Shown piece by piece: positions 11,344 to 55,687 of a stretch of 64,000 nucleotides of DNA; the first letter of the stretch is position 1; each line of letters opens with the position of its first letter. The stretch is taken from contig NC_043013.1 in the NCBI RefSeq assembly GCF_006345805.1, positions 32,116,001-32,180,000 of the forward strand, in the 5' to 3' direction. This stretch comes from Octopus sinensis. Its lineage: Eukaryota. The position numbers and the translations under genes were made by a program. The notes beneath the pieces were generated by a model. That model was not told where the DNA came from. It worked only from the letters and a program-made list of their open reading frames with translations, and did no database searches.

Positions 11344-11537
11344 CGCGAGGAAACATTTTAAAAAAGGCGAATGCTAAATTGAATGTAAATTTTAATAAAA
11401 ATGGGTGTATGGAAAATTTTTCCATACACCCATTTTTATTAAAATTTACATTCAATTTAGCATTCTGCCTTTTTATAATTTTTCTCGCCTATCATTTCTC
11501 CACGTACGGTGAACACAACTCCACCATTTATTGATTT
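11344..11537 (+). repeat. Near-perfect palindrome (~70-bp arms, centre ~11416) plus ~50-bp tail within (TA)n; probable truncated Penelope-like 3' end
   Basis: gaatgctaaattgaatgtaaattttaataaaaatgggtgtatggaaaa / tttttccatacacccatttttattaaaatttacattcaatttagcattc. Confidence 0.85.
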
Positions 11538-12162
11538 ATATATATATATATGTATATATATATATATATATATATATATAATATATATATATATATATAT
11601 ATATATATATATAATATATATATATATATGTTGTGTGTGTGTGTGTGTGTGTGTAAAATAACTGTTTCTTATATTGCCATAAAGGACTAGAAGGTGTTTC
11701 CGTTATATATATATATACACACACACATACACACACACATACACACACACATACACACACACACAACACACACACACAAACACACACATATATATATATA
11801 TATATATATATACACACACACAAAACTATTTAGCTGGCTGATTCTTAACAGGATAATTCGTTTTAAAGTTATAGTAAAATGGACCTCAAATAAAAGTTCG
11901 CTTGCAATCTCGAATGATAGCGTAACACGCCATATGGAGTCCAAAGTGTAGTATTTATGTGTTGTTAGGTAATTAAATACGTAGTGCAAACTAAATGTGA
12001 CGACCATTTTAAGGAAGTAGTGCAGAATGGAAATTTTGTTAGGAAATCAAAACGCACGCATTATACATATTATTGCATAATGTGTATACAATATATATAT
12101 ATATATATATATATATATATATATATATATATATATATACAAACGCACAGATGCACACATAC

Positions 12163-12470
12163 ACACAGCGTGCGATGGGTAAATTGTCGTTATTTTATAT
12201 ATTTGATTTCGCGCATGTGCATTGTTTGCTTTTCATTTTGTCGTCTACACAGTACAGTAGGTTCAGTTGGCCCTAGTATGTGAGAAAAACAGCGCTATGA
12301 CGCAATCCACACTGGCAGAAATATAGGAAACAACATGTTTTACTGCCTGGCATTCACGCCGGAAGCGCCAACACGAATATTTTAGAGTGTTTGTGTGTCA
12401 ATCTGAAAACAGTTAATTAGATGAATCTAATGATGATTACGAATGTACAGAAGCTTGGAAAACTCACTCT
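12163..12470 (+). mobile_element. Possible 5' fragment of a Tc1/mariner-superfamily element
   Basis: TIR-like start cagcgtgcgatgggtaaattgtcg and a degenerate HTH-like reading (MTQSTLAEI...GIHAGSANTNILECLCVNLKTV). Confidence 0.4.
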
Positions 12471-13780
12471 GGTCGTTCCACATACATACATACATATATA
12501 CATACAGACAGAGAGGATGTCCTTGAAGCCGAGGATTTAAACTTATAGAGACAATATTTGCACATCGCCTGAGGAAACACAACTAGATCCCATAATGCAA
12601 ATACCTGGAAGCCTGGAGAACTACGTTGCGTAAAAACAATTGTAGTGATTGCAAATAAATGTCCAACCGTACTCCTTCTTGCTGACTCAAACTTATTCAA
12701 TTATCTATTCATACACTGCAGAAACCCAAATGCAAATCTGGAAGTACATATAATACTACTACTATATACCACAGGGTGAAATCTGAAGGTGGACGAGATT
12801 TACATTGTACTCTACTACGTTCGTAACAGAACATAACATAACTATATATCTATCTATATATATATATATATATATATATATATATATATGTTTAATATCG
12901 ACCGTAGACTTGCATAAGTGTTTCAAGTTCTTTTTAACTCATCTTCAGAGTTGGCAAGACATTATCTATATATTGCAGTATATTTACATAAAGCAAATCA
13001 TTAAAAAACAAAAATAAAGCCACTTACAAGAAATCTAACTGGAAAATCGACAGAAACAGTTCTCTCACTTTGTTGCTACTGTTAGATAGTATCAACTATT
13101 GAAAAACTACTTTTGGTGGTGTGATCGAAATATCACATCAGATGCAATATTACAGTGTGATACTATAAATATTGTCTAATATTCTGGTAATACCAGTGTG
13201 ATTGCTGAAGATAAACCAAAAATAACTTGAAACGTGTAAAGAGTGTAAGGTCGATAGATAGCTATACACCTGTATATAAATGCATTATAAATTTTGTTTT
13301 TGACTGTGACTCTAAATTACGCATTAGAGCTTGTTGAACCGGTGATAATAATATATGTTTCTGATATTTATATAGGAAAGATGACTTATTGGACATTATT
13401 GGAACGCTGGAGTAGTGGTAAAGAACTACAATATGACTTGAAAATCTAAAATTCTTTCTCTCTCTCTCACTCTCTCTCTCTTTCACACACACACACACAC
13501 ACATACATACACACACACACACACACACACACAGAATCTGTCATGTATAATATGTGTTTGGCTGTGTGTTTGTATGTGTGTGCGCGCGCTTGAGTGTGTA
13601 GTATATATATATATATATATATATATATATATATATATATATATATATATAGATATATATATGCAGCTATGGTATATTCTGTTAAGAGCCATGTTGCGTA
13701 GAAACAGTTGTAGTGATTGAAAAAAAGCCAATCGTACTCTTACTTGTTGACTCCAAATTTTTTCAATCATACTGCTTCAA

Positions 13781-13880
13781 GAGGCGCAGGAGTGATTGTC
13801 AGGTAAGAAGTTTGCTTCCACACCACATGGTTCCGGGTTCAGTCCCATTGCGTGGCACCTTGGCCAAGTTTCTACTATAT
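13781..13880 (+). mobile_element. SINE family B head fragment
   Basis: gaggcgcaggagtg...ggttccgggttcagtcccattgcgtggcaccttggccaag. Confidence 0.85.
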
Positions 13881-52909: not shown

Positions 52910-54164
52910 AAAAGCTATTTGGAAGTAGTGTCACCAGTTGGATCGATCTCAAATTATTGTTGGGAATTATTTTATCAACGCCAGTAGACACAAAATAACG
53001 ATGACATTTGAAAGGATATAAACTGATAATATACGTTAATCAATCTAAATAATCTAGCATATTAAACCTACTGCAAATATTGTTTCTCAGTCAAGTGACC
53101 TGGTTAGTATTAAGAACAACAAATTATTCAAAACTAGTTCCACATGCCATGATTTTTCATACATCAATTTTAAAGGAAACACTTAAAATAATAAAGAAAG
53201 TGATTAATTTTTCGTCTTAGGTTGAAGTGTCATTCGATAAGATCTAAATAGTAAGAACATAAATCATTCAATGCAGTATTAAATTATCTCATAAAACTCT
53301 AAACCCTTTCAATTTGTAGCATTCTGTTCAACGAAGATAATTAATTCCATAATGTAAAAATAATTATCGAATTGAAAAACAGTTTAGTCATTGAACTATT
53401 TTCTCGTAAAAATGCAATCACTTCCTTTGAAAGAAAAGATTTTAAAATTTAATCTGAATTTAAATTATTCTCCAGTGTCACTGAGCTAGTTTTGATGTTC
53501 ATGCTAATTGAATCGACATAATCACACATCAGTTTAATGATGCGGAAGTTTTAGGATATTCTATAACAATTATCGTTGAAATTTACATGTTCGAAAATAA
53601 CAATTATTTTATAAAAATTTACATGTTGGAAAATCGGAGGAACCAACAAAACAATATTTTTGTGCGGATTCATATTGTTATTGTTTCTCAGACGATAATA
53701 CTCTTTTACATAAATTTTATTAGTGAACTTTGTAGAGCAGAATGTAAACAACCGAAAAATAGAATACTTGTCAGTAACAGTTCCCATTTATCTCTCTCAA
53801 ACTATTTTCTGCTGTTTTGTATTCTTAAGCGGAGAGCATACATGAGAATTCTTTCTAAATAAGGCCAGCAATTTTGGAGGGGGAGCCAGTTATATCACCC
53901 TCAGAACTTAGCTAGCCCGTATTTTATCAACCCCAAAACAATGAACAGTAATATCAATCTTGGTGGCATTTCGATTCAGAACATAAAGAGCCGGAAGAAA
54001 TACTGCTAAGAATTTTGTTCGGTTTGGTAACTATTGTGTCAGCTCACTGCAAACAAGATAATGGCGCCCGGAATACCTTTGATCACAGATTTTCAAAATC
54101 AGAGATTATCTGGGGCAACATGCTTCCTAGAACCCTAAGTTCATAGCATAGTTTCGATATATAT

Positions 54165-54607
54165 AGGCGCAGAGGTGGCTGTATGGTAAGAAGTTTGCTC
54201 CCGGGTTCAGTCCGACTGCATGGCACCTTGGGCAAGTATCTTCTACTATAGTCTCGGGCCGACCAAAGCCTTGTGAGTGGATTTGGTAGACAGAAAATGA
54301 AACAAGCCCGTCCTATATAATGTATATATTTATATGTGTGTGTGTGTGTGTGTGTGTGTGTGTATACGCATATATCTATGTTCGTGTCTTTGTATCTATT
54401 TGCCGCACTACCACTCGACAACCGGTGTTGGTGTGTTTACGCCCCCGTAACTTAGCGGTTCGGTGAAAGAGACGAATAGAATAAGTGCCTGGCTTTAAAA
54501 AGTAACTTAAGAACCGGGAGTCGATTTTTTCGACTGCGGCTCCTTCAAGACGGTACCCTAACATGGCCGCAGTTAAAAATGATTTATACAAGTAAAGGAT
54601 AAAAGAC
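54165..54607 (+). mobile_element. SINE family B
   Basis: aggcgcagaggtggctgtatggtaagaag...catggccgcagtt. Confidence 0.9.
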
Positions 54608-55379
54608 ACATGTCAAGATACCTCCTCAATATGAAAACTCATTTTTGCATCTCTCATCCGCTTTAATTCCTTTTCTTATGTGTCTCTCCTTACACATAAC
54701 ACACACACACACACACACACACACACACACACACACACATACACACACAGATAAGCATTCGCATACAAAATAAAAGCAAGCATAACCAGATTTGAACTCG
54801 TGTTCTGTGATCTGGTTATGCCTTACTTCGGCTACTCTGACTCTCGCAATTACAAATGTCTGTGCGCGTATGTGCAATATATGCGTGAGACATTATTACG
54901 TAACGCATTATCTTAGAACAAGTAATGCTTTTGCCATGCTTTTGTTGTGACGTCCCTTTAAATCCACTTTTGCCGGTCGATAAATTCATTATTCTTCTCA
55001 ATAGTTCTGTAATATTCATGTTTTATGCCTCACACTCTTTCTTTATTTCTCTCTTTTTCTTTTCTTCTGTGGCTTCCGCTGTATGTACACATGTATATCA
55101 CGAAACAGTACATTATACATACATACATACATACATACATACATACACACACACACACACATATATATATATTATATATATATATATTATTATATATATA
55201 TATATATATATATATATATATAAACATATGTATATATGTATATACGCAATATATATATTATATATATACATATACATATATATGTATATATATATATATA
55301 TATATATATGTGTGTGTGTGTGTGTAATATATATAAATATATATATGTAATATATATAATATATATATGTATATATAAA

Positions 55380-55687
55380 ATATGGTTATCCGTAATAATG
55401 AAGGGTGAAATTAATTAATTTGGAAAAATTATCAATTACACCAAGTAGTCTTCGGCATGTAAAAGCCTCATTCGAGGAAAATTTAAGTAATACTAAGCAA
55501 TAAGGGTTTAGCAACGAGTTGCCTTACCACATACCGAATTTAGAAATAGCAGTCAAAGGGTTATAGCTATTTCTTCTACTAAAAAGTAGAAGAAATAGTA
55601 GAAGAAATAGCTATAACCCTTTGACTGCTATTTCTAAATTCGGTATGTGGTAAGGCAACTCGTTGCTAAACCCTTATTGCTTAGTAT
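55380..55687 (-). repeat. Palindrome (~91-bp arms, 55490-55580 / 55597-55687) plus ~110-bp one-sided extension within (TA)n
   Basis: atactaagcaataagggtttagcaacgagttgcc.. / ..ggcaactcgttgctaaacccttattgcttagtat; agtagaagaaat duplicated in the spacer. Confidence 0.9.

What the first reader, a model, noticed from the sequence alone, without database searches (positions are those of the whole stretch)
11344..55687. Recurring hairpin cassettes in (TA)n: a multi-family, ribozyme-bearing Penelope-type system
Seen: five sequence-unrelated loci (11344-11537, 22772-23142, 35552-36005, 40714-42207, 55380-55687) share one layout: (TA)n, inverted partial copy, centre, forward copy with an extra unpaired tail, (TA)n. 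One contains Penelope-like coding sequence and three contain hammerhead motifs in both arms. Known: Penelope-like elements carry minimal type-I hammerheads in their pseudo-LTRs and often have an inverted 5' pLTR. Inference: several PLE families target (TA)n here and leave tiny fold-back insertions about once per 13 kb, a dense source of 70-330 bp dsRNA hairpins or cruciforms. If the host is a coleoid, these are candidate ADAR or small-RNA substrates.
Basis: partly seen in the sequence, partly recalled or inferred. Interest (0 to 1): 0.85.

Follow-up and report, generated by a model that had tools for sequence, protein, structure and literature searches.

The report
Penelope palindromes copied from spliced RNA
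The five hairpins are short back-to-back insertions of Penelope-type jumping genes in TA repeats, a known pattern; in one family many copies lack the element's introns exactly at the splice sites, so they were likely copied from spliced messenger RNA, which bears on how these elements copy themselves.

Summary
The five palindromes are real. Each is the short end of a size range of head-to-head insertions of Penelope-like elements (PLEs) in (TA)n: two Neptune-type families, two Hydra-type, and one 599-bp hammerhead tandem repeat (retrozyme). One arm ends with a family-fixed tail, the other lacks it. This layout is published.

What I did not find in print concerns locus 3. Its family has two GT donors that share one AG acceptor just before the hammerhead. 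The genome holds unspliced copies (68 exact junction hits) and precisely intron-less ones (75 hits, plus one ORF-spliced insertion). Intron-less arms pile up at one 5' end, and 12 of 17 carry a G where 8 of 8 unspliced copies have T, as expected from cap copying. The two arms always share splice state (20 of 20 insertions), and either arm can be longer. Best model: two primings on one capped sense RNA, joined by microhomology. This counts against the proposed antisense self-priming model and against strict intron retention.

One per 13 kb is a local density (2 in 200 kb in an unbiased sample). The ADAR and small-RNA ideas are untested.

The parts
11344..11416 (-). Family F1 (Neptune-type PLE), tail-less arm, next to (TA)n 11288-11343
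11417..11537 (+). F1 tailed arm; tail about 11493-11537 (45 nt); 8-nt self-complementary overlap at the centre (11413-11420); cut off downstream of the family's hammerhead
   Evidence: GIY-YIG ORF link through L051
22772..22939 (-). Family F2 (Neptune-type PLE), tail-less arm; U3-A8 hammerhead core at 22913-22938
22940..23142 (+). F2 tailed arm; U3-A8 hammerhead core at 22941-22966; tail 23111-23142 (32 nt); 6-nt overlap at the centre
   Evidence: 813-aa RT-EN frame in L181
35552..35729 (-). Family F3 (Hydra-type PLE), tail-less intron-less arm; hammerhead 35652-35703 with intact palindromic stem III
35737..35759 (+). Remnant of F3 exon 1 (23 of 28 nt) joined directly to the acceptor exon at 35759|35760; the 1.1-1.3 kb GT-AG intron is absent
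35760..36005 (+). F3 tailed arm: hammerhead 35767-35818, tail about 35932-35995 (64 nt), then (TA)n
40714..41807 (-). Family F4 (Hydra-type PLE), long tail-less arm: frameshifted RT-thumb, linker and GIY-YIG coding sequence (about 41807 to 41004), 3' UTR, hammerhead 40744-40806
41808..42207 (+). F4 short tailed arm; hammerhead 42046-42107; tail about 42145-42207 (63 nt)
55380..55590 (-). Family F5 (599-bp hammerhead tandem repeat, retrozyme-like), tailed arm; tail 55380-55489; starts downstream of the unit's hammerhead
55596..55687 (+). F5 tail-less arm, next to (TA)n
38451..38524 (-). Single arm of a sixth hammerhead family; its fold-back form is in L009
42263..42442 (-). Older F3-related tailed end sharing the (TA)n tract of locus 4, no inverted partner
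43876..44051 (+). Older F3-related tailed end followed by (TA)n, no inverted partner

Best explanation
Each hairpin is one insertion of a Penelope-like element or of a hammerhead repeat likely mobilised by one, and was likely made when both ends of a cut in (TA)n primed reverse transcription on the same sense-strand RNA at two fixed sites 32-110 nt apart. Shown: family membership, family-fixed tail and tail-less ends, independent 5' truncation of the arms, excess microhomology at the centre, and exact loss of GT-AG introns in many F3 copies. Inferred: the GIY-YIG nuclease cuts both strands, and one end primes at the tail while the other primes at the inner site. The two cDNAs stop independently, or run off the RNA's 5' end, and are joined 3' end to 3' end by microhomology repair. 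In F3 the template can be the capped, spliced transcript from the element's own promoter. Both cDNAs then run off near the same start site and give a near-perfect palindrome of about 190 bp per arm, as at locus 3. The hairpins are most likely by-products with no host function.
For: Fixed ends: tail 45 nt in 12 of 15 F1 pairs; tail-less end 32 nt in from the tail end in 14 of 15 F2 pairs, 63 nt in 8 of 11 F4 rows, 64-71 nt in 24 of 26 short F3 rows. (TA)4 or longer within 30 nt after the tail in 108 of 120 copies (my count). ORFs read towards the tail. Either arm can reach further 5': tail-less longer 13, tailed longer 24, equal 19 of 56 pairs (after dropping 3 of 59 rows as double counts or a duplicate); where the tail-less arm is longer neither arm contains the other, as at locus 4. 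Centre overlap of 3 nt or more in 13 of 47 junctions against 7% in a simulation. F3 introns: donor AAG|GTAAGT found on prediction (5 hits, 0 in the control); a second donor TG|GTAAGT after the ORF in L231-L233, and an insertion joined from that donor to the same acceptor; 2917-nt and 1114-nt introns in L232. Exact junction hits: 75 intron-less, 68 unspliced. The two forms are mixed on a tree of the shared 172 nt, with at least 4 changes forced by well-supported branches and identical rows in both groups. 14 of 54 intron-less arms stop at exon position -28. G precedes that base in 12 of 17 intron-less arms and 0 of 8 unspliced; against arms that stop elsewhere, 12 of 14 versus 5 of 36 (p=4e-6), and 7 of 9 versus 5 of 36 on a conservative count (p=5e-4). 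Head-to-head pairs: 11 both intron-less, 8 both unspliced, 1 both ORF-spliced (held twice in the assembly), 0 mixed. F5 arrays on C1: 18 head-to-head, 0 tail-to-tail among 50 clusters. In vitro, an anole PLE cuts and extends both strands and starts at two internal RNA sites that define the tail (PMC11167929).
Against: No RNA evidence: no run was on record as RNA, and the contig lay-up listed no joint across the F3 intron, with 22 joints not shown. Both donor/acceptor pairs share 3-4 nt, so each junction alone could be a DNA deletion. Several of the 5' G bases can also be read from the partner arm. Matching splice state shows the same class of RNA per event, not strictly one molecule. In F1, F2 and F4 the arms are not clearly closer to each other than to other copies (3.8 vs 5.3%, 3.5 vs 4.0%, 0.6 vs 0.5%; only F3 shows 1.1 vs 3.5%). 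Splice labels are more clustered on the tree than shuffles (0 of 500 as low) and its bootstrap had not settled, so some intron-less copies may descend from intron-less masters. 19 of 56 pairs are symmetric, which snap-back also predicts. No spliced variant was found for F4 (0 hits). No shared end sequence ties F5 to a named autonomous partner. Target-site duplications cannot be read in (TA)n.
Confidence: 0.72

Rival explanations
1. Snap-back: one cDNA folds back on a short palindrome at its 3' end and copies itself, and the nuclease then trims the second arm at the fixed tail site.
For: 19 of 56 pairs are symmetric within 15 nt; window loci 1 and 2 are centred on 8-nt and 6-nt self-complementary words; it also predicts matching splice state in both arms.
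Against: It requires the tail-less arm to lie within the tailed arm, but the tail-less arm reaches further 5' in 13 of 56 pairs, including window locus 4 and L051. In L022 the tail-less arm carries the complete 5' end. It may still account for some symmetric cases.
Confidence: 0.13
2. Self-priming on an antisense transcript (hypothesis in PMC3846280) makes the head-to-head structure, and the intron-less F3 copies come from DNA-level deletions in one or a few master copies.
For: Published to explain head-to-head palindromes plus intron retention. The junctions share 3-4 nt of homology. About half of the F3 junction hits keep the intron.
Against: Two different canonical GT donors join the same AG acceptor. 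Intron-less and unspliced copies occur in each sub-variant. The 5' ends pile up at one base, with a G that unspliced copies lack.
Confidence: 0.07
3. The hairpins are kept by selection as host double-stranded RNA sources (ADAR decoys, small-RNA precursors) or cruciform sites.
For: A transcript across locus 3 would fold into one long hairpin (-280.6 kcal/mol, z=-43.7). Antisense small RNAs from PLEs are reported in a rotifer (PMC3846280).
Against: The arms collect one-arm substitutions (26, 25, 25 and 3 across F3, F2, F1, F4), as neutral decay predicts. Lengths and centres vary freely. No transcription or host gene was shown for this window.
Confidence: 0.05
4. Long-read fold-back chimeras or assembly errors, or MITE-like DNA transposons with terminal inverted repeats.
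For: Palindromes are a known long-read artefact (recalled). The palindromes themselves were not checked in independent reads.
Against: Family-fixed tails, ORFs present in only one arm, arm-specific substitutions, and the same layout at dozens of separate loci. The arms are 3' ends of RT/GIY-YIG elements. Independent short-read contigs bridge the unspliced F3 donor (run X9) and acceptor (run X1).
Confidence: 0.03

Closest known systems
Hydra clade of C-terminal EN+ PLEs, including Hydra-1_Obim (Craig et al. 2021, PMC8557442)
   Same: F3 and F4 have the DKT motif, CxCX5C linker, no CCHH, CxxC and CxH at the C terminus, a type I hammerhead and (TA)n targets. F4 has RWK and matches 28 of the first 44 residues of Hydra-1_Obim by eye.
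   Different: F3 has a 3.1-kb 3' non-coding region with two alternative introns and an asparagine-rich insert, and many intron-less copies; the paper describes Hydra elements as generally under 3 kb and reports no such copies in the passages I read.
Neptune (or Nematis) clade PLEs
   Same: [quoted passage not shown] The U3-A8 hammerhead core is known from Schistosoma PLEs (PMC4209133).
   Different: No difference shown; Neptune versus Nematis was not resolved.
Penelope of Drosophila virilis and Chlamys-3_cRei
   Same: Short first exon, 5'-UTR intron in the pLTR, intron end at the hammerhead (PMC2377424, PMC4209133, PMC8557442), inverted 5'-truncated copy, tail on one end.
   Different: These are described as keeping the intron after transposition; in F3 about half of the exact junction hits have lost it precisely, with a likely cap-derived G.
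Poseidon element of Anolis (PAc) in vitro (Frangieh et al. 2024, PMC11167929)
   Same: Both DNA strands cut and extended; two internal start sites define the tail; AT-rich targets.
   Different: The two parts I read do not explain inverted copies or test spliced templates.
Non-LTR retrozymes (PMC7229834; bioRxiv 10.64898/2026.07.22.740005)
   Same: F5 is a tandem repeat with one type I hammerhead per unit and no PLE coding sequence seen, in single units and arrays.
   Different: The 599-bp unit is longer than the roughly 300 bp given as typical. Arrays are often two-sided, head-to-head, and end at recurring sites next to (TA)n, which points to insertion as ready-made multimers; the 2026 preprint also invokes local tandem amplification.
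L1 twin priming (recalled, not read here)
   Same: Two primings by the two target ends give an inversion joined by microhomology.
   Different: In L1 the two cDNAs copy different parts of the RNA; here they copy the same 3' part, so the product is a palindrome.

Membership tests
EN+ Penelope-like elements | Single frame with RT followed by a GIY-YIG endonuclease | tested here: met
   F2: 813-aa frame, RVT_1 E=3e-8. F4: 543-aa frame, GIY-YIG weak (E=0.008, below cut-off). F3: broken RT-EN frame in L232. F1: nuclease part only (L051).
EN+ Penelope-like elements | 5'-truncated copies, inverted partner at the 5' end, tail on one end | tested here: met
EN+ Penelope-like elements | Type I hammerhead with palindromic stem III near the 3' end | tested here: met
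   Motif scan finds one in all five families; Rfam Hammerhead_1 matches F3 and F5 below the gathering score. Cleavage not tested.
EN+ Penelope-like elements | Introns retained in transposed copies | tested here: not met
   F3: 75 intron-less versus 68 unspliced exact junction hits. Described as typical behaviour rather than a strict criterion; one test in F4 found no spliced form.
Hydra clade (F3, F4) | RWK and DKT motifs, CxCX5C linker, no CCHH, CxxC and CxH at the C terminus | tested here: met
   F4 has all; F3 has all but RWK, whose region lies at or beyond the truncated 5' end of L232. Definitions from PMC8557442 section 11.
Hydra clade (F3, F4) | Insertion into (TA)n | tested here: met
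   26 of 30 F3 and 29 of 30 F4 copies (my count)
Hydra clade (F3, F4) | Generally under 3 kb | tested here: inconclusive
   F4 about 2.6 kb; unspliced F3 over 5 kb because of its introns
Hydra clade (F3, F4) | Placement in the RT phylogeny | not tested
   No tree with reference PLE proteins was built; comparison with Hydra-1_Obim was by eye.
Neptune clade (F1, F2) | CX2-5CxxC linker and CCHH-type GIY-YIG at the C terminus | tested here: met
   F2 has both; only the nuclease part was seen for F1
Neptune clade (F1, F2) | Placement in the RT phylogeny (Neptune versus Nematis) | not tested
   No tree built
Non-LTR retrozyme (F5) | Two or more tandem units, each with a type I hammerhead | tested here: met
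   599-bp unit, arrays up to 8 matches on one strand, hammerhead motif in 11 fetched loci
Non-LTR retrozyme (F5) | Self-cleavage and circular RNA | not testable with these tools
   Needs RNA assays
MITE / TIR DNA transposon | Symmetric fixed terminal inverted repeats, no RT link | tested here: not met
   Ends are asymmetric, arm lengths vary, and arms continue into RT/GIY-YIG frames

The most novel reading that the evidence does not exclude
These palindromes record the PLE insertion reaction in vivo: one capped, spliced, sense RNA is read twice from the two ends of a double-strand cut. In family F3 the short first-exon transcript yields run-off, strong-stop-like cDNAs that form a class of processed 260-nt ribozyme-bearing mini-elements, so intron retention is not built into PLE replication. 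The same reaction inserts retrozyme multimers as ready-made two-sided arrays.
Probability: 0.55. Interest if true: 0.75.

Novelty: new variant of a known kind. Interest (0 to 1): 0.6.

Why it matters
How PLEs form inverted ends and why they keep introns are named as open questions in PMC8557442 and PMC3846280. The latter proposes an antisense template and says experiments are needed to tell it from an unspliced sense one. F3 supplies a natural marker, splice state plus a likely cap G, that reads out template polarity and origin for each arm of each insertion. It favours a sense template read twice. It also gives a short defined RNA and target for an in vitro test. F5 adds structural evidence that retrozyme arrays are inserted by PLE enzymes. 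As a source of double-stranded RNA the elements may number in the tens of thousands genome-wide (extrapolated from 2 in 200 kb, so very rough), but no function is shown.

Tried and rejected
Rfam on the whole window listed no hammerhead among the best 150 of 248 weak matches, which were mostly microsatellite hits to miRNA models; narrow scans found it only below the gathering score.

DNA searches of the own genome with locus 5 returned nothing, not even the window itself; a pattern search then gave 1221 exact hits, so the blanks reflect the search skipping common words.

An antisense CUGAAGA...GAAA motif at 22841-22926 was set aside: stem II does not abut the core and the related family F1 lacks it.

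A trans-spliced leader was considered for the F3 leader and rejected once the donor was found in cis. A single ancestral deletion was rejected as the only source of intron-less copies.

A spliced variant of F4 at the AG before its hammerhead gave 0 hits with one pattern, which covers only exons ending in A/C/G-AG.

Sequencing runs: no RNA holder listed. Contig lay-up on L177:7850-9610 was swamped by (TG)n repeats and is inconclusive on the splice joint.

Arm-to-arm similarity did not show a single template in F1, F2 or F4. A monomer fold of the F3 hammerhead region was no more stable than shuffles (z=0.12). The unbiased density sample is only 200 kb.

Earlier scan findings: none.

Literature searches for intron-less PLE copies or twin priming in PLEs listed no such report. 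The library lacks most subscription papers; I did not read Arkhipova 2003 or 2006, Evgen'ev and Arkhipova 2005, or the 2017 Terminon paper, and supplements of the 2026 preprint were not available.
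Full report
OBSERVATION. Self-BLAST of the masked window returns the five loci among the strongest inverted matches, and alignments fix their arms. In a uniform scan (arms 35 bp or more, 85% or more identical), 5 of 9 inverted pairs in the window have (TA)n at one end and a tail then (TA)n at the other; these are the five named loci, and random positions give that pattern 0.9% of the time. The window is G000:C17:32116001-32180000 of a 2.72-Gb genome. 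An octopus host is plausible from the likeness of one family to Hydra-1_Obim, but I did not test it.

FAMILIES. Each locus was searched in the own genome. First-look candidates were 1539 (F1, locus 1), 2183 (F2), 1482 (F3) and 1095 (F4); 40 of each were scored and 30 fetched. These are the best matches, not a random sample. F2 continues into an 813-aa RT-EN frame with a CX4CxxC linker and a CCHH-type GIY-YIG. F1 links to a related nuclease in L051. F4 continues into a frame with RWK, DKT and CxCX5C and no CCHH, the Hydra signature in PMC8557442 (section 11); many F4 copies match the window query at the same 99%, so it is young. F3 links to another Hydra-type frame. F5 (locus 5) is a 599-bp tandem unit with a type I hammerhead whose stem II spans about 80 nt; one 25-nt pattern has 1221 exact hits. 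All five families carry a hammerhead motif with a palindromic stem III; loci 1 and 5 are cut off downstream of it.

COMMON ANATOMY. ORFs read towards the tail. Tail length is fixed per family: 45 nt in 12 of 15 F1 pairs, 32 nt in 14 of 15 F2 pairs, 63 nt in 8 of 11 F4 rows, 64-71 nt in 24 of 26 short F3 rows. F5 ends recur at offsets 28-35 and 129-143 from a fixed motif, with one at 80 (7 sources). (TA)4 or longer follows the tail within 30 nt in 108 of 120 copies (my count). Arms run from about 70 bp to 1.7 kb. The tail-less arm reaches further 5' in 13 pairs, the tailed arm in 24, and 19 are equal within 15 nt (56 pairs; I dropped 3 of 59 rows: a double count in L180, L085 as a copy of L082, and L024 listed twice). 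Where the tail-less arm is longer, as at locus 4, neither arm contains the other, so a single snap-back or a read chimera cannot make it. Centre junctions overlap by 3 nt or more in 13 of 47 cases against 7% simulated; 16 have inserted bases. Arms carry private one-arm substitutions (26, 25, 25 and 3 in F3, F2, F1, F4), as expected of real, ageing DNA.

WHAT IS KNOWN. PMC8557442 (abstract, passages, section 11, supplement rows) describes the inverted 5'-truncated copy, the 30-40 bp tail, (TA)n targeting and an octopus Hydra family with a hammerhead. PMC4209133 (parts 1-2 of 4) reports hammerhead pairs on opposite strands 100-700 bp apart, the U3-A8 core, and the Penelope intron ending at the hammerhead. 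PMC11167929 (parts 1-2 of 4) shows in vitro cutting and extension of both strands and two internal start sites that define the tail. PMC3846280 (passages) notes abundant head-to-head palindromes and proposes self-priming on an antisense template, partly to explain intron retention, leaving the question open. PMC2377424 (passages) places a 75-bp intron 46 bp after the Penelope start site.

THE NEW PART: F3. Short F3 copies, including locus 3, share a 28-nt leader joined to the hammerhead exon; long copies have a pyrimidine tract and AG at that same base. A search for the predicted donor gave 5 hits and 0 in the control, each followed by a 1.1-1.3 kb GT-AG intron ending at that base. A rare ORF-bearing form joins at the same base. 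A second donor matching its join was then found after the ORF in L231-L233. L232 shows the whole order: ORF, UTR, donor 1, exon 1, donor 2, acceptor, hammerhead, tail, (TA)n, with introns of 2917 and 1114 nt. Exact junction hits number 75 intron-less and 68 unspliced, at 62 and 57 loci. The ORF-spliced form is one insertion held twice, with identical flanks.

On a tree of the shared 172 nt (48 intron-less, 25 unspliced and 2 ORF-spliced arms, a few of them overlapping fetches of one place), the forms are mixed in both sub-families. Well-supported branches force at least 4 changes and 2 sets of identical rows span groups; the labels are still more clustered than shuffles and the bootstrap had not settled. 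Of 54 intron-less arms, 14 stop exactly at exon position -28 and 4 go further. A G precedes that base in 12 of 17 intron-less arms that reach it and in 0 of 8 unspliced copies, which all have T. An extra 5' G is the usual mark of copying an mRNA cap (recalled). Some of these G bases can also be read from the partner arm; leaving out the three forced by a shared 4-nt word and counting L012 once leaves 7 of 9 against 5 of 36 for other stop points (p=5e-4; the 5 of 36 is my count). Both arms share splice state in 20 of 20 independent head-to-head insertions where both junctions match exactly; independent draws from a half-and-half pool would mix about half.

F5. Of 50 clusters among the first 100 listed hits (contig C1), 18 are head-to-head and 0 tail-to-tail, some with several units on each side. 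Their ends abut (TA)n at recurring sites. This fits insertion of multimeric cDNA by a PLE enzyme. The 2026 preprint (part 1 of 5, discussion, passages) argues for a PLE origin and PLE-driven mobility of retrozymes from distribution and phylogeny, and also invokes local amplification; its main text has no 'head-to-head' or 'tail'. PMC7229834 (passages) has no 'inverted'. I found no autonomous partner for F5.

MECHANISM. Shown: membership, fixed ends, independent truncation, microhomology, exact intron loss, 5' pile-up, concordant arms. Inferred: a two-strand cut in (TA)n, two primings on one sense RNA, and joining of the two cDNA ends. Confidence in the PLE or retrozyme identity is about 0.97, in a spliced sense template for F3 about 0.85, and in the full twin-priming model 0.72.

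LIMITS. There is no RNA evidence. The palindromes were not checked in independent reads, though short-read contigs from other samples bridge the unspliced F3 donor and acceptor. A single template is not visible in arm similarity for F1, F2 or F4. Density is 5 in 64 kb here against 2 in 200 kb unbiased (p=0.011, and the window was picked for having them) and 7 in about 277 kb of flanks. A transcript across locus 3 would form one long hairpin, which would also bury both hammerheads, but transcription, editing and small RNAs were not tested.

VERDICT. The intron-less, likely cap-marked, two-armed F3 copies are a new variant that I did not find in eight literature searches, and they make a stated open question testable. 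Interest 0.6.

Noticed in passing
window 38451-38524 (-); L009:746-960: A sixth short hammerhead family (core CCGAUGA, same stem III as F4): a single arm in the window, a fold-back with a 66-nt tail in L009.
   Followed up: partly
L189:2622-5575 (G000:C1 near 135.00 Mb): A second retrozyme-like family: 535-bp hammerhead units in a two-sided array with nearly identical arms, (TA)n at both ends.
   Followed up: partly
L187:6655-7220: Fold-back of another hammerhead family, 243-bp arms and 79-nt tail, found in the unbiased sample.
   Followed up: partly
L176:1017-1646; L232: The F3 ORF carries an asparagine-rich (AAT)n insert before the linker, like the N-rich inserts in rotifer Penelopes (PMC3846280).
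   Followed up: no
L223, L224, L226: Three unspliced F3 copies share the same internal inversion of about 400 bp upstream of exon 1, so a rearranged copy seems to have served as a master.
   Followed up: no
L213 unit, L189 unit, window 42035-42050, L181 3' UTR: An AG lies a few bases before the hammerhead in F5, the L189 family, F4 and F2, as in F3; possible acceptors. One test in F4 was negative.
   Followed up: partly
L040, L038: L040 has an inverted F1 arm that keeps the tail on both sides; L038 has a symmetric palindrome with (TA)n at both ends and no tail. These are exceptions to the one-tail rule.
   Followed up: no
window 24246-25635, 32346-32791, 34159-34560, 39783-40367, 57812-58560, 60478-60758: An abundant SINE-like repeat with a unit of about 190 bp, in tandem and in both orientations; these copies give most other inverted matches in the window.
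   Followed up: no
window 59940-60368 (-): Frame resembling a Helitron-type PIF1 helicase fragment (label recalled, no search run).
   Followed up: no
window 9833-10531 (-) and 32036-32425 (-): Two related fragments resembling the C-terminal zinc-finger region of a non-LTR retrotransposon (label recalled).
   Followed up: no
window 52086-52688 (+): Broken frames resembling a mariner transposase (label recalled).
   Followed up: no
L050: An F1 copy lies about 700 bp from a frame resembling the PARP-type zinc-finger exon of DNA ligase III (label recalled), so some copies may be intronic.
   Followed up: no
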